This document shows, piece by piece, positions 3,895 through 32,106 of a stretch of 64,000 bases of DNA. The notes under the pieces were generated by a model. That model searched no databases. It saw only the letters and a program-made list of their open reading frames with translations, and was not told where the DNA came from. Origin of the DNA: an uncultured Candidatus Saccharibacteria bacterium (lineage in GTDB: Bacteria > Patescibacteriota > Doudnabacteria > UBA920 > O2-02-FULL-48-8); contig CAZSDS010000001.1 of the NCBI GenBank assembly GCA_964605735.1, positions 134,771 through 198,770 of the forward strand. The letters are read 5' to 3'. The position numbers were made by a program, and so were the translations under genes. How positions within the stretch are numbered: the first letter of the stretch is position 1; every line of letters starts with the position of its first letter.

Positions 3895-4460
3895 ACACCT
3901 CCTTGGTGTTGGGTGGCGGCGCTGCTGCAGCAGCGCCGCCTGACGAACGAAGAAGCGAAGGAAACGAAGAAGCGAAGGAACACGGGTCCTGGTGAGCCAC
4001 TTTATGCAGCCACACCAGGGCCCAACTTGCTAAAAACCGGCTTGGTTCATCTTTGGGACTCTTCCAGTGCGAGGAAGAGAGATTCGCCGGCTTATACGAG
4101 TTCTGCATCTCGCTGTTTCCCGGAGAAACAGCTTCAAGGTTGTCCCTCACAGCCCAGAGAACTCTTTTTTCTTTTCTTATATCAAAACAAGGATGCTCTT
4201 GTATGATTGCTGCCGCCATACTTGTTAGCGTTCAAGGGAGTTGCAGCATTTATCAGTGCAATTAGATCTGCTCACCGGGGCTACAGATCGACAAACTTAG
4301 GGTTCGCACACCCCAAATCAGAAATTACACCAATACCCTACGGTTGAACTTGTAAAAAAACTACTACCAAAACAGTAGGTGTATTCTATCAGATTTTGGT
4401 AATTTGTCAATACATGAGACATAAAAATGGCTTAAATAAGCCGTTTTCCCGGAATACTTA
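3895..4460. other. GC-rich, highly structured non-coding block (candidate ncRNA, class unassigned)
   Basis: GC content is much higher than the flanks; a 24-nt perfect palindrome GCGGCGCTGCTGCAGCAGCGCCGC (3914-3937); a 17-nt tandem duplicate ACGAAGAAGCGAAGGAA x2 (3946-3979); an 11-bp imperfect hairpin gggtcctggtg/caccagggccc; a GGGGCTACAGATCGAC...GGGTTCGCACACCCC segment at 4276-4315; a hairpin plus T-run at 4427-4450. There is no credible SD-led ORF. Confidence 0.4.
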
Positions 4461-16050: not shown

Positions 16051-16434
16051 TGCCTCTTAAAGTAAGCGTGCAATCGCGTCCGCCTTTGGCGGATGAGGAA
16101 AGTCCGAACACGTGGATTGAATGAAGTCTCATGAGTTCATGCAATCATTCGTTGCGGGTAACGCCCGTCGAAAGTAATTTTAGGGATGCGAGCAGTGACG
16201 GTTAAGCAGAGATGCGAGACTATCCAGAGCCGCAAGGTAACGGATAAATCTGATGGTAACATCAGGGTGAAACGGCTAAATTCCAACGAATCAGTGCAAT
16301 ACCGAATAGGGTCCTTTACGGGCCGGGTAGGTAGCTGGAGCTAGTCAGCAATGAGTAGCCAAGAGAGATGATTGCTACACTGCAGGAATGCAGGATAGAC
16401 AGAATTCGGCTTACAGCTTGCTTTTTAAGAGGCA
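16051..16434 (+). ncRNA. rnpB: RNase P RNA (bacterial type)
   Basis: Conserved GAGGAAAGTCCGAACAC (P4/CR-I) at about 16104 and ACAGAATTCGGCTTACAG (CR-V) at about 16399; a P1 stem tgcctcttaaagtaagc / gcttgctttttaagaggca closes the molecule; a terminator hairpin follows at 16440-16470. Confidence 0.85.
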
Positions 16435-25408: not shown

Positions 25409-25744
25409 ATGAACATTGCCATAAAAACCACGAATTTTGAAATGACGGAAGCAATAAAGGCATATGCGGAAGATAAAGTGGGAGCACTGGAGAAATTTGT
25501 GGATGCCATGCAGGCCAATATTGAACTGGAAAGGGACAGAAAACATACTTCAGGAAATGTGTTTAGGGCAGAGGTTATGATGACCGTTGGCGGCAAACAG
25601 TTAAGGGCGGACGCCAGCGCCACAGATATGTATGCGGCAATTGACTTAGTCATCCCTAAATTGAAAGAACAAATCGCTAAATATAAAGATAAGCGCGATA
25701 CGTTGCAAAAAAGGGGAGCAAGGGCTGCAAAAAACAAGAATTAA
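25409..25744 (+). CDS. hpf: ribosome hibernation promoting factor / RaiA (short form)
   Basis: MNIAIKTTNFEMTEAIKAYAEDKV...FRAEVMMTVGGKQLRA matches the S30AE family. Confidence 0.9.
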   Translation: MNIAIKTTNFEMTEAIKAYAEDKVGALEKFVDAMQANIELERDRKHTSGNVFRAEVMMTVGGKQLRADASATDMYAAIDLVIPKLKEQIAKYKDKRDTLQKRGARAAKNKN

Positions 25745-25762
25745 ATAGGGTTAGTGGTAAAA

Positions 25763-25790
25763 AATGGCTTATTTAAGCCATTTTTTACTT
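25763..25790 (+). terminator. hpf terminator
   Basis: aaaaatggcttatttaagccatttttt; the same hairpin motif (aatggctta-NNN-aagccRtttt) recurs at 4427-4450. Confidence 0.65.
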
Positions 25791-25797
25791 GTCTGGA

Positions 25798-25826
25798 TTG
25801 ACGGATTGCCCCCGTTATGCTAAACT
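25798..25826 (+). promoter_or_regulatory. sigma70-type promoter driving the first GC-rich island transcript
   Basis: TTGACG (25798-25803), 17-nt spacer, TAAACT (25821-25826); a 14-nt perfect palindrome GTTGAACGTTCAAC lies immediately downstream at 25841-25854. Confidence 0.5.
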
Positions 25827-25832
25827 GCTTGC

Positions 25833-26407
25833 ATTCGTAAGTTGAACGTTCAACATCCGTCCAGGAGGACACTCATGACCGACGCCCGCGACCGTTACGG
25901 CGGCCAGCTGACCAGCCCCGCCACCTCAACGATGCATACGCCGCGTTTCTCGTCTCGCCTCGTCGCCGCCGCCGCACGCCGCGTGTAGCCACAAACCGGC
26001 TGGCCGCGGTTCGCACTGTACTACTCGTTTAGCATCTGTTCTCGCCTAAGAGGAGAGTGATGATGCCTCAGATTCGAGCACCGACGTAGTCACGCCAGAC
26101 ACCGGCGGCTGAGATTTGGGCCGAAGCTATCGGCTTCTCTGCCGCCACGCAACCCATTTACATCGTTTCGGTTTCCGCTCCTGAGCGCATTGGTTTTGAT
26201 GAAGCCAGGACCGGATCGGCGGATCTCCATTTGGATCTCCGCCGCGAACGGGGCGCTTTGATTTGCCGCCCCATGCGACCGTGCGTCGCGATTAGTCGGC
26301 AGTCGTTAACCTCAGGGTTCGCCGCCGCGTTGCCGTTGCTTGCGCGCGACGGGTTCCCTTCTTCCCGGCCAACTCATCTCTCATTGAGTTGGCCGGCTTT
26401 ATTTTGC
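25833..26407 (+). other. GC-rich (about 62%) transcription unit 1, about 570 nt, bounded by a promoter and an intrinsic terminator: candidate large ncRNA and/or small-protein gene
   Basis: No ORF of 60 aa or more lies within it (the one listed ORF 26231..26524 begins inside it but only by running through its terminator); it contains a 37-codon SD-led ORF (25875-25988) and a 9-codon SD-led ORF; it ends in a 12-bp stem ccggccaactca/tgagttggccgg plus ctttatttt (26365-26407). Confidence 0.4.
25875..25988 (+). CDS. small SD-led ORF (37 aa) MTDARDRYGGQLTSPATSTMHTPRFSSRLVAAAARRV; may be a leader peptide or unrelated to function
   Basis: AGGAGGA (25863-25869) lies 5 nt before the ATG; very high GC; below the 60-aa cutoff of the ORF track. 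Confidence 0.25.
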   Translation: MTDARDRYGGQLTSPATSTMHTPRFSSRLVAAAARRV

Positions 26408-26432
26408 AAAAAAATCCCAGAGCGGCAAGTCC

Positions 26433-26461
26433 TTGACGTTATGCTGTCGCTTATTTATGAT
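26433..26461 (+). promoter_or_regulatory. sigma70-type promoter of GC-rich unit 2
   Basis: TTGACG (26433-26438), 17-nt spacer, TATGAT (26456-26461). Confidence 0.5.
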
Positions 26462-26467
26462 AAATTC

Positions 26468-26771
26468 GCAATCCAATTCCGGGTTTGCAAAAACACAGGG
26501 AGGTTTTTACGACAAAAAGTGTGAGACGTCGCGTCGTTCGTGCCCCTCGCCCAAAAAGGCCCGCGGACACAAGCGCCGCCTCGCCAATTGGGCATTGGCC
26601 TGAACCCTGACTAGACGGGTTCTACCACCCACCACACTTTCGTTCGGCAATACCCGCATGCGAACCGGGATGTTAGCTTGCCCCTTAACCGCACAACAAC
26701 GGCATCGAAGTGGCTAGCGCCCGGCTCATCCATAAGGCCCGCTCACTAGCTGAGACGGGCCTTTCTTTTTA
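26468..26771 (+). other. GC-rich transcription unit 2, about 300 nt (candidate ncRNA), ending in an intrinsic terminator
   Basis: Has a GGGAGG sequence but no start codon within reach; stops occur in all frames; terminator aggcccg-ctcactagctgaga-cgggcct plus ttcttttt at 26735-26771. Confidence 0.35.
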
Positions 26772-26838
26772 CCTTGGTTTTTAGTATAATATTGGAGCTA
26801 ATTTTAAGTATTTTTCGATAATAACAGCCACTAATTAC

Positions 26839-29514
26839 ATGGGATTTTTCAGCAATTTATTCAGCGATTCAAATCAGCGCGTTATAGCCAAGCTTCAGGA
26901 ACGAGTTGATGAAATCAACGCGCTTGAGCCGGAATTTGAAAAGAAGTCACAAGAGGAGTTAAGGGAATTAACTGCTGTTTGGAAAAAAGAGCTGGCAGGT
27001 TTAGCCGCAGGAGAAGGATCCGACCCTGCCGGAGATTTGGAAAAAACTAAAGCGTATTTAGATCAGATTCTGCCTCAGGCATTTGCGGTTGTCCGTGAAG
27101 CTTCAAAGAGAACTTTGGGTCAGCGCCACTATGACGTGCAAATGATGGGTGGTATGGTTTTGCACCAGGGGTCAATCGCAGAAATGAGAACTGGTGAAGG
27201 TAAAACTTTGGTGGCAACTTTGCCAATGTATTTAAACGCCCTGACTGGGCGCGGTGTGCACCTTGTTACGGTAAACGATTACCTGGCGCGCTGGCAGGCT
27301 TCCTGGATGGGGCAAATTTATCATTACTTGGGAATCAGTGTTGCGTCCATTCAGCACCAGCAGGCTTTTCTCTATGACCCGACTTACCAGCCGGAAGAGG
27401 AAGAAATTAAAGCCGTTGAATCACAGGTGGAAGGTTTGGTTTTGGACGTAAAGAACATGCGGCCAGTGAACCGACGCCAGGCTTATGCGGCTGACATTAC
27501 GTACGGCACAAACAACGAATTTGGTTTTGATTATCTCCGCGACAACATGGTTTGGTCTAAAGACCAGATGGTCCAGCGCAGTGAGCCATATTTTGCCATC
27601 GTTGACGAAGTCGACTCTATTTTGATCGATGAAGCGCGTACGCCTTTGATCATTTCAGCGCCTGACACAGAGCCAACAGACAAATACTACGAGTTTGCAA
27701 AAGTTGTAAACAAACTGACCGAAGACGAAGACTACAACGTTGACGAAAAAAAGAAAGTTGCGACTTTAACAGAAGCTGGCATTGCCAAACTGGAACAGCT
27801 TTTGAATTTGAAAAATATTTACGACAAAGACGGAATCAATACTGTCCATCACATTGAGCAGGCTTTGCGGGCCAAGACTTTGTTTAAAAAGGACGTGAAC
27901 TATGTAGTGCGCAGCGGGGAAATCGTTATTGTTGACGAATTTACCGGACGATTGATGTTTGGCCGCCGCTACTCAGAAGGGTTGCACCAGGCTATTGAGG
28001 CTAAAGAAGGAGTGAAGATCCAGCAGGAAAGCAAAACTCTGGCCACCATCACTTTCCAGAACTTGTTCCGCTTGTACCATAAACTTGCTGGTATGACTGG
28101 TACTGCTGAAACCGAGGCTGAGGAATTCCATAAGATTTATAAGCTGGAAGTGGTCCAGATTCCAACCAACAAACCGATTCAGCGCCAGGATTTGCCTGAT
28201 CAGGTTTATAAGAGCGTGGAAGGGAAGTATCGGGCGGTGGCGCAGAAGGTCAAGGAACTGCACCAAATTGGCCGTCCGGTTTTGCTGGGTACTATTTCCA
28301 TTGAGAAGAATGAGCTGCTTTCAAATTTGCTGACGCAGGCTGGCGTGCCGCATGAGCTTTTGAACGCCAAAAACCATGAGCGTGAAGCGCAGATTATTTC
28401 CCAGGCCGGGCGTTTGGGAGCCGTAACTTTGGCCACCAACATTGCTGGACGTGGCGTGGACATTATTCTGGGCGGGAACCCTGCTGATCCGGAAGAGCAG
28501 GCTAAGGTTAAGGAGCTCGGTGGTTTGGCTGTGATTGGTACGGAGCGCCATGAATCGCGCCGCATTGACAACCAGTTGCGTGGACGTGCAGGACGTCAGG
28601 GGGATCCTGGATCCTCTCAATTCTTCCTGTCATTGGAAGATGATTTGATGCGCTTGTTTGGCGGTGACAGGGTTATAAGGATGATGAACATGGTGGGCAT
28701 GCCTGAAGACCAGCCAATTGAAGCTGGTTTGATTTCCAAAACCATTGAAGCGGCGCAGAGGAAAATTGAAGGCTTGAACTTTGATACCCGTAAGCACGTG
28801 CTTGAATATGACGATGTAATGAACAAGCAAAGAACCGTCATTTACAAAAAGCGCAGAGAGATTTTGGATAAGGCGGCGAGCGGCCAGGATTTGTCGGAAG
28901 AAGTCCTGGGCTTGGTGACAAAAGAAATTAAGGAGTTTGTTAATTTCCATTTTGCCCAGGAAGAGGTTGATTACAAAGAAATCTATCAGAACGCAGCGGC
29001 TATGATGCCTTTGCAGCCTGGTGATATGAAAGATGCCGGGGATGTCCAGCAAGTTGCTGAGCATTATATTTCGATTGCTGAACGCGAGTATGCGGCTAAA
29101 AAGAACCGGGTTGGGGCTGAGGTTATGGCGCAGATGGAGCGTATGGTTTATTTGCGGGCGATTGACATACTCTGGCAGCAGCATTTGGATACTATGGAGC
29201 ATTTGCGGGATTCTGTGAGATTGCGCGGGTATGGCCAGCGCGATCCATTACTTGAATTTAAAAACGAAGGATTCCAGCTGTTCCAGCGCTTGCTTGATGA
29301 GGTTAATGCCCAGGTGGCAAACATGATTTTCAAGATTGATGTCATGCAACAGCCCGCGCCAGTTGTTCCGGTGAATAATGAAATCCCTGCCGGAGAAGAA
29401 CCGGGAAGAAACGACCCATGCCCTTGTGGGTCAGGGAAGAAGTATAAACGCTGTGGATTGTTAAATACGGAAGAGCACCAAAAAAATCTTGTCAAAATGC
29501 AGGGTGGTGTTTAG
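26839..29514 (+). CDS. secA: preprotein translocase ATPase SecA
   Basis: DEAD-motor motifs (MRTGEGKTLVATLP, LIDEARTPLIIS), HSD/HWD, and the C-terminal zinc-binding sequence CPCGSGKKYKRCG. Confidence 0.95.
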   Translation: MGFFSNLFSDSNQRVIAKLQERVDEINALEPEFEKKSQEELRELTAVWKKELAGLAAGEGSDPAGDLEKTKAYLDQILPQAFAVVREASKRTLGQRHYDVQMMGGMVLHQGSIAEMRTGEGKTLVATLPMYLNALTGRGVHLVTVNDYLARWQASWMGQIYHYLGISVASIQHQQAFLYDPTYQPEEEEIKAVESQVEGLVLDVKNMRPVNRRQAYAADITYGTNNEFGFDYLRDNMVWSKDQMVQRSEPYFAIVDEVDSILIDEARTPLIISAPDTEPTDKYYEFAKVVNKLTEDEDYNVDEKKKVATLTEAGIAKLEQLLNLKNIYDKDGINTVHHIEQALRAKTLFKKDVNYVVRSGEIVIVDEFTGRLMFGRRYSEGLHQAIEAKEGVKIQQESKTLATITFQNLFRLYHKLAGMTGTAETEAEEFHKIYKLEVVQIPTNKPIQRQDLPDQVYKSVEGKYRAVAQKVKELHQIGRPVLLGTISIEKNELLSNLLTQAGVPHELLNAKNHEREAQIISQAGRLGAVTLATNIAGRGVDIILGGNPADPEEQAKVKELGGLAVIGTERHESRRIDNQLRGRAGRQGDPGSSQFFLSLEDDLMRLFGGDRVIRMMNMVGMPEDQPIEAGLISKTIEAAQRKIEGLNFDTRKHVLEYDDVMNKQRTVIYKKRREILDKAASGQDLSEEVLGLVTKEIKEFVNFHFAQEEVDYKEIYQNAAAMMPLQPGDMKDAGDVQQVAEHYISIAEREYAAKKNRVGAEVMAQMERMVYLRAIDILWQQHLDTMEHLRDSVRLRGYGQRDPLLEFKNEGFQLFQRLLDEVNAQVANMIFKIDVMQQPAPVVPVNNEIPAGEEPGRNDPCPCGSGKKYKRCGLLNTEEHQKNLVKMQGGV

Positions 29515-29516
29515 GT

Positions 29517-30974
29517 ATGGAAATTCTCTGGTTAATTTTAATTGTACTTGCGGGCGGATATATTGCTAAGTGGTTGTTTAGCGTTGCCAAGAGTAGTGGT
29601 AAAACAATTTTATCAAATGAAGAGCTAGTTAAATATGGAATTGGAGCAAGAAGACAATCGCGGAAATTTTTAACAATTGAAAAACCAAATGTAAATTTCT
29701 CAGAGGAAACAAAAAAAGTTCTAAACTTATTGGAAAATACGACTTCTAACTTATTTATTACAGGCAGAGCTGGAACAGGGAAGTCTACGTTACTTAAATA
29801 TTTTCGTGCCACTACTAAAAAGAATTTGGTAGTATTAGCACCTACCGGAGTAGCTGCAGTTAATGTGCAGGGACAAACAATACATTCATTTTTTAAATTT
29901 GGACCGAATATTACACTTGATAAAGTGAGAAAGCGATATGGGGACGAAGCACAAGTTTATAAGAAACTTGAAACCTTAATCATTGATGAAATTTCAATGG
30001 TCAGGGCTGACTTATTCGACTGCTTACAAAAATTTTTATTTTTAAACGGACCGAAGCCTTTTACTCCATTTGGAGGAGTACAGACTGTTGTATTCGGTGA
30101 TCTCTACCAATTACCACCAGTTGTAAAAGAAGAAGAAAAATATATTTTTAATAATCATTATAAAGGACCTTATTTTTTTAACTCTTTATGCTATTCTCAG
30201 GCTAAATTCAAAATCGTTGAATTAACACATGTTTACCGCCAATCTGATGAAGATTTTATTGAAATTTTGGATTCAATTCGGCTAAACCAAGCAAAACAAC
30301 ATCACTTAGATAGGATAAACCAGTGTTTTATTGAGGGATATGAATTGCCAAAAGAAGATTATGTTATTTCACTCGTTACAACAAATAATTCAGCTAGGCA
30401 AATTAATCAGAATAAATTAGATGCTTTGCCTGGTCAAAGTAAATTGTATAGAGCAAAAATAACCGGTGAATTTAAAGATACCAACTTGCCTACAGAAAAT
30501 GAACTATATTTAAAACCTGGTGCCCAAGTCATGTTGCTTAATAATGATTCCAAAAATCGTTGGGTCAATGGCGATGTTGCTAAAGTTATAAGTCTTTCAG
30601 AAGATTCCATTAGAGTTTTGTTTGAAGACAAAACGTTTGATGATATTTCCCTAAACACTTGGGAGATGTCAAGATTTGTTTTTGATGAAGAAGCAAGGAG
30701 AATCAGGTCTGAAGTTATCGGATCATTTACTCAGTTGCCTATAAAATTAGCTTGGGCAGTCACAATTCATAAATCACAGGGCAAAACTTTCGATAAAGCA
30801 GTACTTGACTTCGGATCAGGTAGTTTTGCCACAGGTCAAACTTATGTTGCATTAAGCAGATGCAGGTCACTGTCAGGGTTAGTTTTAAGAACTCCAATTG
30901 CGGAACAGGATATTTTTATAGATAAAAAAGTAGTAGAATATATGTCTGATAATTCAAGCAGAATTAAGGTATAG
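29517..30974 (+). CDS. PIF1-family (RecD-like SF1B) DNA helicase
   Basis: Walker A sequence FITGRAGTGKSTLL; IIDEISMV; VFGDLYQLPPV; TIHKSQGKTFD; markedly AT-rich codon usage compared with secA; starts 2 nt after the secA stop. Confidence 0.8.
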   Translation: MEILWLILIVLAGGYIAKWLFSVAKSSGKTILSNEELVKYGIGARRQSRKFLTIEKPNVNFSEETKKVLNLLENTTSNLFITGRAGTGKSTLLKYFRATTKKNLVVLAPTGVAAVNVQGQTIHSFFKFGPNITLDKVRKRYGDEAQVYKKLETLIIDEISMVRADLFDCLQKFLFLNGPKPFTPFGGVQTVVFGDLYQLPPVVKEEEKYIFNNHYKGPYFFNSLCYSQAKFKIVELTHVYRQSDEDFIEILDSIRLNQAKQHHLDRINQCFIEGYELPKEDYVISLVTTNNSARQINQNKLDALPGQSKLYRAKITGEFKDTNLPTENELYLKPGAQVMLLNNDSKNRWVNGDVAKVISLSEDSIRVLFEDKTFDDISLNTWEMSRFVFDEEARRIRSEVIGSFTQLPIKLAWAVTIHKSQGKTFDKAVLDFGSGSFATGQTYVALSRCRSLSGLVLRTPIAEQDIFIDKKVVEYMSDNSSRIKV

Positions 30975-31182
30975 CAATTAGACTAAAATTTGACTTTTTA
31001 GAAAAAGCGATGTATAAAAAATAAAAAACTATTTACACATTGGAATAAGATTAAAGTTAAATAAAAATATTTATTGCTCGTAGTAAACAAAATCCGCGTT
31101 GACAAGCGCGGGTCTTTGTTTTATATTTGAGACAAGGCGGCGTTTGCCGCTATTTTAATTCTAGCAATAAAGGAGCTAAATT

Positions 31183-31392
31183 ATGGCAAAAAGCGTAAAA
31201 GTAACAAAAGAAAGTGATTCGGGAAGAAATCAAGAATTTATTGATACGAAGTCAGGGCGACATATGGGCAGATCTGACTTTGTGAAGAAGATTGAGGAAG
31301 GAAACTATGACGATTACCATGTTCGGAGGATTAATGGCGTGAAAACTCCAGTTTCTAATCCTGATCATAGCGAAGGAAATAATCTAGACTAA
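31183..31392 (+). CDS. small DUF3892-like protein
   Basis: 69 aa; the C-terminal YHVRRINGVKTPVSNPDHSEGNNLD resembles the DUF3892 C-terminus; SD aaggagc. Confidence 0.4.
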   Translation: MAKSVKVTKESDSGRNQEFIDTKSGRHMGRSDFVKKIEEGNYDDYHVRRINGVKTPVSNPDHSEGNNLD

Positions 31393-31398
31393 TTATTT

Positions 31399-32106
31399 AT
31401 GTCTAAACTAATTTTTGACATAGAAACAGTTGGCGAAAATTTTGATGAACTTGATGAAACCACTCAGGGTGTTTTGACGCGATGGATCAAACAAGATTCC
31501 GAAACTGAAAATGAGTATTTAAGAGCATTAGAAAATCTAAAGAATGGACTCGGGTTTTCCCCTTTAACGGGTGAAATAGTTGCAATTGGTGTATTTGACC
31601 CCGATAAAAATCAAGGAGGTGTTTATTTTCAGGCTCCAGAACAATACATTGCAGACTTTGAAGAAAATGGAATCAAATATAAGCAAATGAATGAAAAAGA
31701 AATGCTTGAAAAATTTTGGGAGATATCTTCAAAGTACCAAGAATTTATAAGTTTTAATGGGAGAGGATTTGATGCACCATTTTTAGCAATCCGATCAGCA
31801 ATCCATAAAATTAAGCCGGCCAAAGATCTTATGGATGGAAGGTATTTGTATCAGCAGAAGAAAGTAACACATATTGATCTGCAGGACCAGCTTTGTTTTT
31901 ATGGATCCGTGCGCCGTAAGGGGAGTTTGCATCTATTCACTCGTGCTTTTGGTATTAAAAGTCCCAAGTCAGAAGGAATATCAGGAGATGATGTTGGTAG
32001 ATTATTTCAAGAAAAAAAATTTGTAGAAATTGCGAAATATAATGCAGGTGACTTATTCGCAACAAAAGAACTTTATGATTATTGGAATAATTACTTAAGA
32101 TTATAG
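31399..32106 (+). CDS. DEDD-type 3'-5' exonuclease (PolB-exonuclease-like / DnaQ-like fold)
   Basis: FDIETVG is Exo motif I; the overall size and FNGRGFD match predicted 3'-5' exonucleases related to the PolB exo domain. Confidence 0.55.
   Translation: MSKLIFDIETVGENFDELDETTQGVLTRWIKQDSETENEYLRALENLKNGLGFSPLTGEIVAIGVFDPDKNQGGVYFQAPEQYIADFEENGIKYKQMNEKEMLEKFWEISSKYQEFISFNGRGFDAPFLAIRSAIHKIKPAKDLMDGRYLYQQKKVTHIDLQDQLCFYGSVRRKGSLHLFTRAFGIKSPKSEGISGDDVGRLFQEKKFVEIAKYNAGDLFATKELYDYWNNYLRL

What the first reader, a model, noticed from the sequence alone, without database searches (positions are those of the whole stretch)
25797..26775. About 1 kb GC-rich (about 62%) non-coding island downstream of hpf with two complete promoter/terminator units
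In a genome of about 42-45% GC, this block has only one listed ORF of 60 aa or more (26231..26524), which begins inside unit 1 but exists only by reading through a 12-bp-stem intrinsic terminator and was rejected as coding. GC-rich random sequence would normally give long spurious ORFs. The block has two near-consensus sigma70 promoters: TTGACG-17-TAAACT at 25798-25826 and TTGACG-17-TATGAT at 26433-26461. Each is followed, about 570 and about 300 nt downstream, by a strong intrinsic terminator (26365-26407 and 26735-26771). A 14-nt perfect palindrome GTTGAACGTTCAAC sits exactly at the predicted +1 of unit 1, like an operator. Unit 1 also carries a perfect AGGAGGA SD followed by a 37-codon ORF (MTDARDRYGGQLTSPATSTMHTPRFSSRLVAAAARRV) and a second SD with a 9-codon ORF. 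In low-GC genomes structured RNAs stand out as GC-rich (rnpB here does), so these look like one or two unannotated structured ncRNAs, possibly with a leader peptide. Their position next to hpf/raiA is notable, because the orphan raiA-motif RNA class is named for sitting next to raiA genes. I could not place either unit in a known family (tmRNA, SRP, 6S, OLE and similar) by eye.
Basis: seen in the sequence. Interest (0 to 1): 0.7.

Follow-up and report, generated by a model that had tools for sequence, protein, structure and literature searches.

The report
GC-rich noncoding insert beside hpf
The 1 kb GC-rich block between hpf and secA is a real, non-coding, lineage-specific insert with its own promoters and terminators, sitting in a spot that varies a lot between related Candidatus Doudnabacteria genomes, but nothing shows it is a conserved structured RNA or a raiA-motif relative.

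Summary
Two promoter-to-terminator units lie between hpf and secA, with no credible ORF. Several supporting arguments fail. The lack of long ORFs is what chance gives. The block is 57.5% GC, and only the unit-1 body reaches 62%. rnpB is only 48% GC. Once the terminator hairpins are removed, the bodies fold no better than shuffled sequence (z about -1), and they are C-rich, unlike real RNAs here. No Rfam family matches, raiA included, and no frame matches any protein.

Comparison with relatives (Candidatus Doudnabacteria) shows that the hpf-secA junction is hypervariable. It is empty (5-120 nt), or holds a 115-nt unit, a 560-nt unit, or a retron (ncRNA plus reverse transcriptase). Only the first unit's promoter and about 60 transcribed nt (with CAGGAGGA) are conserved, in three genomes. 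The bodies cannot be aligned.

Best reading: compositionally foreign cargo in an insertion hotspot, probably transcribed as two untranslated orphan RNAs of unknown role. A new structured RNA class is not excluded but is unsupported. Interest is low to moderate.

The parts
25757..25788 (+). hpf intrinsic terminator (15-nt perfect arms, A-run before and T-run after, so bidirectional in form); left border of the insert
   Evidence: I4
25798..25826 (+). Promoter P1, TTGACG-17-TAAACT with extended -10 TG; the only part of the island conserved in other genomes (L163, L162)
25833..25880 (+). Conserved 5' transcribed module of unit 1, ending in CAGGAGGA (SD-like, 25862-25869) and ATG 25875; it contains the non-conserved palindrome 25841-25854
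25875..25988 (+). 37-codon sORF after the SD; not conserved (7 codons in L163, no ATG in L162)
25957..25975 (+). GCCTCGTCGCCGCCGCCGC, the only body motif shared with L163 (18/19 identical)
25880..26364 (+). Unit-1 body: 62.7% GC, C-rich, no coding signal, MFE z about -1, not alignable with the L163 body
26365..26405 (+). Terminator T1: perfect 12-bp stem, 8-nt loop, then CTTTATTTTG
   Evidence: I11
26397..26470 (+). AT-rich (38% GC) spacer between the two units, carrying promoter P2 (TTGACG-17-TATGAT, 26433-26461)
26468..26735 (+). Unit-2 body with SD-like AGGGAGG at 26497-26503 but no start codon at a usable distance; 57-60% GC, GC skew -0.18, MFE z -1.3; no homologue found
26736..26770 (+). 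Terminator T2: GGCCCGCTC...GAGACGGGCC followed by TTTCTTTTT
26759..26838 (+). Ancestral host sequence: GCCTTTC...TTTTTAGTATAAT (secA promoter, -10 at 26785-26790) and the secA leader. It is shared with relatives that have no insert and forms the right border of the insert

Best explanation
The block is a lineage-specific, compositionally foreign, non-coding insert at the junction between the hpf terminator and the secA promoter. That junction is an insertion hotspot in this clade of Candidatus Doudnabacteria.

The insert is built as two tandem units. Each has a sigma-70-type promoter, a Shine-Dalgarno-like box about 30 nt after the start, a GC-rich body, and an intrinsic terminator. The predicted RNAs are about 573 nt (25833-26405) and about 303 nt (26468-26770).

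Shown:
- The signals are present.
- The bodies are not coding.
- P1 and the first ~60 transcribed nt are conserved in three genomes whose synonymous sites are saturated.
- The bodies are unalignable between genomes, fold no better than shuffled sequence, and are C-rich.
- secA keeps its own conserved promoter downstream of T2.
- The same junction in relatives is empty or holds other cargo, including a retron.

Inferred:
- Both units are transcribed as untranslated orphan RNAs.
- The conserved functional part, if any, is the P1 promoter plus its 5' module. Its exposed SD-like box probably docks 30S subunits, either for translation of a non-conserved sORF or for STAB-SD-like 5' protection (own knowledge of Bacillus STAB-SD).
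- The GC-rich bodies are acquired filler or cargo rather than a conserved fold.
- The terminators insulate secA from read-through.

The block is not a raiA-motif RNA, and it matches no family in the Rfam release 15 library used here.
For: Signals are in place.

Non-coding:
- The period-3 power is 2.4 against 17.6 for secA.
- The six-frame query found nothing in 5.8e9 proteins.
- No convincing Pfam hit: the only match was PF25349 at E 0.067, 13.3 bits against a 27-bit cutoff.
- The 144-aa open frame has no relative in 1.84e9 representatives.
- No alternative genetic code rescues an ORF, and the neighbouring genes use all three stop codons.

Foreign composition: GC is 0.60-0.63 against 0.452 for the window, and 4-fold-site GC is 0.30-0.46. 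GC skew is opposite to all flanking genes.

Hotspot: the hpf-to-secA gap is 5, 91, 101, 119, 222, 281, 730 or 1094 nt, or holds a retron of about 1.5-1.9 kb, in relatives with 74-83% identical SecA or hpf.

P1 module conserved:
- Single-sequence nhmmer gives E 1.4e-6.
- The profile hits only the window, L163 and L162, at E 2e-20, 1e-22 and 2.5e-13.
- The conservation is comparable to that of the hpf promoter.
- secA 4-fold sites are only 38% identical.

Bodies not homologous or not constrained: the global alignment z is about 1, and tblastx finds nothing.

No special folding.

The secA promoter after T2 is ancestral.
Against: - A streamlined Patescibacteria genome would be expected to delete 1 kb of useless DNA. 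The promoters and a perfect 12-bp terminator are intact, which hints at function beyond the 5' module.
- The L163 body does fold better than shuffles (z -3.3). GC-rich coding controls do so too, so this measure does not discriminate.
- If the window and L163 bodies descend from one ancestral insert, their GC of about 60% has been held against an AT-leaning neutral composition. That would argue for selection on the bodies.
- No transcript data were available, so transcription is an inference.
- No donor of the GC-rich DNA was found.
Confidence: 0.45

Rival explanations
1. One reading: one or two novel, functional, structured non-coding RNAs. They would be lineage-specific and fast-evolving in sequence, with GC-richness kept by selection for folding.
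For: - The promoter and terminator units are intact.
- P1 is conserved across saturated divergence.
- Both the window and L163 bodies are about 60% GC although neutral GC4 is 0.30-0.46.
- The L163 body has z -3.3.
- Long GC-rich intergenic regions are a known enrichment for structured RNAs (PMC6429828, PMC8723152).
Against: - The window bodies have z -1.0 and -1.3 without terminators, and the unit-1 halves give +0.9 and -0.7.
- The strand is C-rich, unlike rnpB and the retron ncRNAs.
- The bodies are not alignable and no covariation is obtainable.
- The unit is absent from most relatives at this locus.
- No Rfam hit at E up to 10.
- rnpB is only 48% GC, so in this 45% GC genome a fold does not require 60% GC.
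Confidence: 0.15
2. Decayed protein-coding cassette(s). On this view each unit is the wreck of a horizontally acquired GC-rich gene, for example a former defence or toxin-antitoxin pair in the same hotspot that holds a retron in sister lineages. Each would retain its promoter, SD, start codon and terminator.
For: - Gene-like layout: promoter, SD at about +30, ATG at ideal spacing, and a terminator.
- Foreign GC, and a hotspot with a clearly foreign retron.
- Folding is no better than random.
- GC at codon position 3 is highest in the first 270 nt in the frame of the 37-codon ORF.
- L162 looks like a deletion remnant: promoter plus SD plus terminator only.
Against: - No similarity in any frame to any protein, to the neighbours' RT, or between the window and L163 at protein level.
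- No overall period-3 signal.
- Conservation of the promoter and SD while the body is randomised is not what neutral decay of a dead gene predicts.
Confidence: 0.2
3. A long regulated leader of secA. On this view P1 and/or P2 are upstream secA promoters, and T1 and T2 are conditional attenuators, sensing translation or a ligand.
For: - T2 ends only 68 nt before the secA ATG.
- All units point towards secA.
- In L162 an ATT-initiated frame would run through the terminator.
- hpf-secA synteny is old (own knowledge of the Bacillus yvyD-secA arrangement).
Against: - A conserved secA promoter (TTTTTAGTATAAT) lies between T2 and secA and is present in relatives without any insert.
- No riboswitch, T-box or leader family matches.
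- Most relatives have no such leader.
- No alternative antiterminator pairing is conserved.
Confidence: 0.07
4. A small-protein gene: the 37-aa peptide MTDARDRYGG...LVAAAARRV is the product, and the remaining sequence is a 3' UTR.
For: - Perfect SD and spacing.
- The SD and start codon are conserved in L163.
- Loose similarities exist (RY.GG, [IL]VAAAA) if a +1 shift is assumed in L163 (read).
Against: - The ORF is 7 codons in L163 and has no ATG in L162.
- tblastx shows no conserved frame.
- The similarities need an ad hoc frameshift and are low-complexity.
- A 400-nt GC-rich 3' UTR would remain unexplained.
Confidence: 0.08
5. A retron-derived or RT-dependent RNA: an orphan msr-msd-like template left after loss of the reverse transcriptase, or one served by an RT encoded elsewhere.
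For: Sister genomes carry a retron-type RT with a ~400-nt GC-rich ncRNA at exactly this junction.
Against: - No RT in the 64-kb window.
- No similarity of the island to the retron ncRNA or RT gene apart from ancestral host flank.
- The covariance model of the retron ncRNA finds nothing.
- The promoters differ.
Confidence: 0.05

Closest known systems
raiA motif RNA (Bacillota/Actinomycetota; PMC10861870, PMC11706538)
   Same: A non-coding element next to an hpf/raiA gene that is itself next to secA.
   Different: raiA motif RNAs have six covarying stems, two pseudoknots and 51 highly conserved nucleotides. They lie upstream of raiA and downstream of comFC, and are known only in Bacillota and Actinomycetota (PMC10861870). 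This block is downstream of hpf, in Patescibacteria. It has no Rfam match and no conserved core.
Long GC-rich intergenic regions used to find structured RNAs (GC-IGR/DIMPL approach; PMC6429828, PMC8723152, PMC11109978)
   Same: Long intergenic region with GC well above the genome average.
   Different: Candidates from that approach are accepted only with homologues and covariation. Here the bodies have no alignable homologue and no excess folding energy. The genome is only moderately AT-rich (45% GC), and its rnpB is 48% GC.
Defence/mobile-element integration hotspots between conserved core genes (own knowledge)
   Same: The same pair of core genes flanks alternative cargo in related genomes: nothing, small units, or a retron. 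The cargo has foreign composition.
   Different: The cargo here encodes no protein, and no integrase or recombination site was identified. No terminal repeats flank the window's insert.
STAB-SD / 5'-proximal ribosome-binding stabilisers of Bacillus transcripts (own knowledge; term found in PMC12970973)
   Same: A strong SD-like box about 30 nt from the predicted 5' end. In unit 2 and in L162 it has no usable start codon.
   Different: No experimental evidence here. The RNase complement of this organism is unknown.
Retron msr-msd ncRNA
   Same: A GC-rich non-coding stretch with its own promoter at the same junction in sister genomes.
   Different: No RT in the window and no sequence or structure match.

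Membership tests
raiA motif RNA | Match to the family covariance model (P1-P6, two pseudoknots, about 51 conserved nucleotides; PMC10861870) | tested here: not met
   Rfam 15 found nothing in the block at gathering score. In permissive mode (E up to 10) on 25700-26900 it found only chance hits to unrelated families. That the raiA model is in Rfam 15 is my own knowledge and was not checked.
raiA motif RNA | Typical position: upstream of raiA/hpf and downstream of comFC | tested here: not met
   The block is downstream of hpf, and the gene upstream of hpf is murC.
raiA motif RNA | Taxonomic range: Bacillota and Actinomycetota | tested here: not met
   The closest hpf and SecA relatives are named Candidatus Doudnabacteria or Patescibacteria.
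Any Rfam family (tmRNA, SRP, 6S, OLE, ROOL, GOLLD, introns, leaders) | Covariance-model match | tested here: not met
   ARAGORN finds no tmRNA. The homologous loci also have no hits at E up to 1.
Structured ncRNA class in general | Homologues in several genomes with compensatory base-pair changes | tested here: inconclusive
   Only two further genomes carry the unit, and only the promoter and 5' ~60 nt align. The bodies are not alignable, so covariation cannot be scored. No relative closer than 83% SecA identity exists in the protein collection.
Structured ncRNA class in general | Folding energy clearly below that of shuffled sequence | tested here: not met
   The bodies without terminators give z -1.0 and -1.3, against rnpB at -3.6. 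The earlier z of -2.3 to -3.4 came from the terminator hairpins.
Retron (msr-msd ncRNA plus RT) | Adjacent retron-type reverse transcriptase | tested here: not met
   tblastn of the L164 and L170 RTs against the whole window found no hit at E up to 1. The rest of the genome could not be examined.
Retron (msr-msd ncRNA plus RT) | Similarity to the ncRNA of the retron found at this junction in sister genomes | tested here: not met
   blastn and Smith-Waterman find only the host flank. Covariance model R1 finds nothing at E up to 10.
Retron (msr-msd ncRNA plus RT) | a1/a2 terminal inverted repeats and a branching G | not tested
   No systematic search was made. The inverted repeats listed do not bracket either unit.
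Protein-coding pseudogene | Residual similarity to proteins in some frame | tested here: not met
Protein-coding pseudogene | Residual codon periodicity | tested here: not met
   Period-3 power is 2.4, with a shuffle 95th percentile of 2.8, against secA at 17.6. There is a weak local GC3 excess in the first 270 nt only.
Leader-peptide attenuator or SecM-like monitor of secA | A conserved upstream ORF directly coupled to the regulated gene, with no promoter in between | tested here: not met
   The sORF is not conserved. Two terminators and a conserved secA promoter lie between it and secA.
CsrB/RsmZ-type protein sponge | Many GGA motifs in hairpin loops | tested here: not met
   GGA counts equal the shuffle expectation: 7 against 7.1, and 3 against 4.0.
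Type I toxin-antitoxin | A conserved small hydrophobic peptide and an antisense RNA promoter | tested here: not met
   The window sORF is hydrophilic. There is no minus-strand promoter in the block.

The most novel reading that the evidence does not exclude
P1 could be a conserved 'expression platform' of a Doudnabacteria-specific RNA family. In that family only the promoter and an SD-bearing 5' module are fixed. The long GC-rich, C-rich body would turn over rapidly or be exchanged, yet be kept at about 60% GC against the genome's mutational bias. One example would be an RNA-only decoy or defence element occupying the same hotspot as retrons.
Probability: 0.15. Interest if true: 0.6.

Novelty: new member of a known kind. 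Interest (0 to 1): 0.3.

Why it matters
If the units are just hotspot cargo, the value is practical. The result shows that in a moderately AT-rich Patescibacteria genome a long GC-rich intergenic block with perfect-looking promoters and terminators need not be a structured RNA. It also shows that MFE z-scores are driven by the terminator hairpins.

The work defines the hpf-secA junction as an insertion hotspot in Candidatus Doudnabacteria that also hosts retrons.

If instead the conserved P1 module marks a real RNA family with a free-running body, it would be an unusual kind of bacterial RNA gene and worth a transcriptome check.

Tried and rejected
- **Known RNA families:** Rfam gathering and permissive scans and ARAGORN found nothing in the block.
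- **Mobile DNA:** blastn against plasmids and phages found no match. No terminal inverted or direct repeats flank the block, and there are no tandem repeats.
- **Pseudogene:**
  - The concatenated six-frame query against 5.8e9 proteins found nothing.
  - The Pfam scan of the stop-to-stop frames gave no convincing hit.
  - The full phmmer search of the 144-aa frame found nothing.
  - tblastx against L163 found no conserved frame.
  - Alternative genetic codes do not open a long frame.
- **SecA-anchored synteny:** 160 loci from genome and metagenome collections contained no homologue of the island. These relatives mostly lack hpf upstream of secA, so the approach was replaced by hpf-anchored look-ups.
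- **RT-remnant idea:** the N-terminus of the sORF loosely resembles the RT N-terminus (RYGG against RSGG, AAAA against AAA). No alignment reaches significance, so the idea was rejected.
- **Shared 3' junction:** a shared 3' junction with the retron first looked like common ancestry. The same sequence is present in genomes with no insert, so it is host sequence.
- **P2 and the L176 module as members of the P1 family:** the profile does not detect them, so the resemblance is generic promoter consensus. The viral-contig hit to the promoter pattern is a generic extended -10 promoter.
- **CsrB-like sponge:** rejected.
- **Antisense target of the GCC motif:** no convincing site in the window.
- **MFE z-scores:** those including terminators were misleading and were redone without them.
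Full report
**What is there**

The window is about 45% GC. Its genes run mostly on the plus strand. hpf (25409-25744, Pfam Ribosomal_S30AE) and secA (26839-29514) are separated by 1094 nt. The elements in that gap, in order, are:

- the hpf terminator hairpin (25757-25788);
- promoter P1, TTGACG-17-TAAACT with an extended -10 TG (25798-25826);
- a 14-nt palindrome (25841-25854);
- AGGAGGA (25863-25869) and a 37-codon ORF (25875-25988);
- a GC-rich body;
- a perfect 12-bp terminator, T1 (26365-26396, then a T-run);
- a 38% GC spacer carrying promoter P2, TTGACG-17-TATGAT (26433-26461);
- an SD-like AGGGAGG (26497-26503) with no start codon at a usable distance;
- a second GC-rich body;
- a second terminator, T2 (26736-26770);
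- the secA promoter TTTTTAGTATAAT (26778-26790).

**Which parts of the observation exceed chance**

- The block is the most GC-rich stretch of the window. Its GC is 57.5%, not 62%. The two bodies are 62% and 60%, and the rest of the window is 45.2%.
- The argument that GC-rich sequence should give long ORFs fails. In 1000 dinucleotide shuffles the median longest ORF is 120 aa, and 20% of shuffles are at or below the observed 97 aa. The longest stop-to-stop frame (144 codons) equals the shuffle mean. Stop counts per frame are ordinary.
- Promoter-like sites are enriched in the 2-kb region (6 against 2.1 +/- 1.3). Terminator-like sites are not (3 against 2.9).
- rnpB is 48% GC. In this genome a structured RNA does not need to be GC-rich, so 60% GC points to foreign composition rather than to folding.

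**Not coding, and not a known RNA**

- There is no period-3 signal (power 2.4, against 17.6 for secA).
- A concatenated six-frame query found nothing among 5.8 billion protein clusters.
- No stop-to-stop frame of 63 aa or more, in the window or in L163, gave a convincing Pfam match. The only hit was PF25349 at E 0.067, 13.3 bits against a 27-bit cutoff.
- The 144-aa open frame has no relative among 1.84 billion representatives.
- Recoding a stop codon does not help, and the neighbouring genes use TAA, TAG and TGA.
- Rfam 15 finds only rnpB and a tRNA in the window. In the block it finds only chance matches at E > 2. ARAGORN finds no tmRNA.
- Plasmid and phage collections hold nothing similar.

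**Is it structured?**

- With terminators included, the units gave MFE z of -2.3 to -3.4.
- Leaving out the terminator hairpins removes the signal. The unit-1 body gives z -1.0 (its halves +0.9 and -0.7), and the unit-2 body gives z -1.3.
- For comparison, rnpB gives -3.6, the retron ncRNAs of sister genomes -2.7 and -2.8, and GC-rich RT coding DNA -2.7 and -3.1.
- The conserved 5' 148 nt of unit 1 and of its homologue have z +0.9 and +0.5.
- The bodies are C-rich (GC skew -0.10 and -0.18). rnpB (+0.21), the retron ncRNAs (+0.10, +0.13) and all flanking genes (+0.15 to +0.24) are G-rich.
- There is thus no thermodynamic or compositional support for a special fold on the transcribed strand.

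**Relatives**

- hpf and SecA homologues are named Candidatus Doudnabacteria or Patescibacteria.
- A Logan assembly of SRR7082966 is identical over 12.3 kb, which gives no evidence that the block is an assembly chimera.
- SecA-anchored retrieval gave 160 loci with no homologue of the island. Most of those genomes have other genes upstream of secA.
- hpf-anchored look-ups gave syntenic loci.

The hpf-to-secA interval in those loci is:

| Loci | Interval between hpf and secA |
|---|---|
| L167-169 | 5 nt |
| L171 | 91 nt |
| L173-175 | 101 nt |
| L166 | 119 nt |
| L162 | 222 nt |
| a JGI contig (no DNA) | 281 nt |
| L163 | 730 nt |
| this window | 1094 nt |
| L164/L165/L176 and L170 | about 410-460 nt of GC-rich non-coding DNA plus a 357/358-aa retron-type reverse transcriptase |

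No relative closer than 83% SecA identity exists in the protein collection.

**What is conserved**

- L163 has, at the same place, a promoter almost identical to P1 (TTGACC-17-TATAGT). It also has the same CAGGAGGAC..ATGA, a 60% GC body and a terminator.
- L162 has the same promoter and CAGGAGGAG, followed after 45 nt by a terminator. That makes a 115-nt unit.
- A profile of this 5' module hits only these three genomes, at E 2e-20, 1e-22 and 2.5e-13. It hits nothing else in the window or in 175 loci.
- The conservation is comparable to that of the hpf promoter and leader. Four-fold degenerate sites of secA are only 38% identical between the window and L163, which is near saturation. P1 is therefore most likely a working promoter under selection.
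- The bodies are not alignable (global score z about 1). The only body segment scoring above the shuffle null is GCcTCGTCGCCGCCGCCGC. A few weaker short matches lie in the same order along both sequences.
- There is no protein-level similarity.
- The sORF is 37 codons here, 7 in L163, and has no ATG in L162. The palindrome is absent from L163.
- Unit 2 has no detectable homologue.

**Relation to the retron**

- The RT of L164 and L170 hits retron RT models: PADLOC RT_III-A at 4e-29, and NCBIfam retron_St85_RT at 1.5e-28, which is below that model's cutoff.
- The window has no RT.
- The island shows no similarity to the retron ncRNA or RT gene. A covariance model of the retron ncRNA finds nothing.
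- One shared segment exists: GCCTTTC...TTTTTAGTATAAT plus the secA leader. It is also present in genomes with no insert, so it is ancestral host sequence and marks the right border of the insertion site.
- The retron and the island are therefore alternative occupants of one hotspot, not demonstrable relatives.

**Interpretation**

The most economical reading is that the block is compositionally foreign, non-coding cargo in an insertion hotspot at the hpf-terminator/secA-promoter junction. It is arranged as two promoter-to-terminator units that are probably transcribed.

The part that selection visibly maintains is P1 with its short SD-bearing 5' module. An SD-like box about 30 nt from the 5' end recurs in unit 2 and in L162 without a usable start codon. 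This suggests 30S docking, as with STAB-SD stabilisers in Bacillus (own knowledge), rather than a conserved peptide. That step is inference.

The terminators insulate secA, which keeps its own promoter.

I cannot exclude that the bodies are functional. A streamlined genome keeping 1 kb of filler is odd. If the window and L163 bodies share ancestry, their 60% GC has been held against a neutral GC of 0.30-0.46. Without closer relatives or transcript data this stays open.

**Comparison with known systems**

- It is not a raiA motif RNA. There is no model match, it lies on the wrong side of hpf, and it is in the wrong phylum (PMC10861870).
- It fits the selection criterion of GC-rich-IGR screens (PMC6429828, PMC8723152). 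It fails the follow-up criteria of homologues with covariation.
- It most resembles lineage-specific cargo of an integration hotspot.

**Verdict**

It is unsupported on the points that made it interesting: structured RNA, the raiA link, a leader peptide and an operator. Interest is 0.3.

Noticed in passing
L164 5337-6919 with L176 1-1446, and L170 1744-3310: Two sister Doudnabacteria genomes carry a retron-like element exactly between hpf and secA. It consists of about 410-460 nt of GC-rich non-coding DNA and a 357/358-aa RT (57% identical to each other; best hits are retron RT models). No effector gene follows it. In both RTs the catalytic box reads YGDN (TRYGDNLCFS) instead of YADD. The element sits between two copies of the T-run plus TATAAT box (TTTTTAGTATATAAT ... 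TTTTTAGTATAAT).
   Followed up: partly
L176 1143-1440: A ~47-nt direct repeat of the secA promoter/leader (1143-1189 and 1393-1440) brackets a ~200-nt module. The module has promoter TTGACG-17-TATCCT, a CCTCCT...AGGAGG hairpin that would hide the SD, a 10-codon sORF (MRRMPQLTGF), a GC-rich hairpin and a terminator. It looks like a recent insertion or duplication in the secA leader.
   Followed up: partly
window 29517-32106: Directly after secA the GC drops to 30-38% for about 2.6 kb. The genes there carry PIF1/AAA_30 helicase and RNase_H_2/DNA_pol_B_exo2 Pfam hits in the identical Logan contig. This is probably a second, AT-rich foreign island on the other side of secA. Relatives have different genes at this position (Ku, EVE, SMC-like).
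   Followed up: no
window 4423-4447 versus 25761-25785: The hpf terminator hairpin (aaaaatggcttatttaagccatttt) has a near-identical copy (24 of 25 nt) about 21 kb upstream.
   Followed up: no
window 16058-16429: RNase P RNA (Rfam RNaseP_bact_a, 125.8 bits) is only 48% GC, barely above the genome average. GC-richness is therefore a poor marker of structured RNA in this genome.
   Followed up: yes
L002, L004, L007-L009 and many other SecA-anchored loci: Many records whose SecA is 50-70% identical to this Patescibacteria protein are titled 'uncultured Gammaproteobacteria', 'Methylomirabilota', 'Binatia' and so on. The record titles look unreliable for these MAGs.
   Followed up: no
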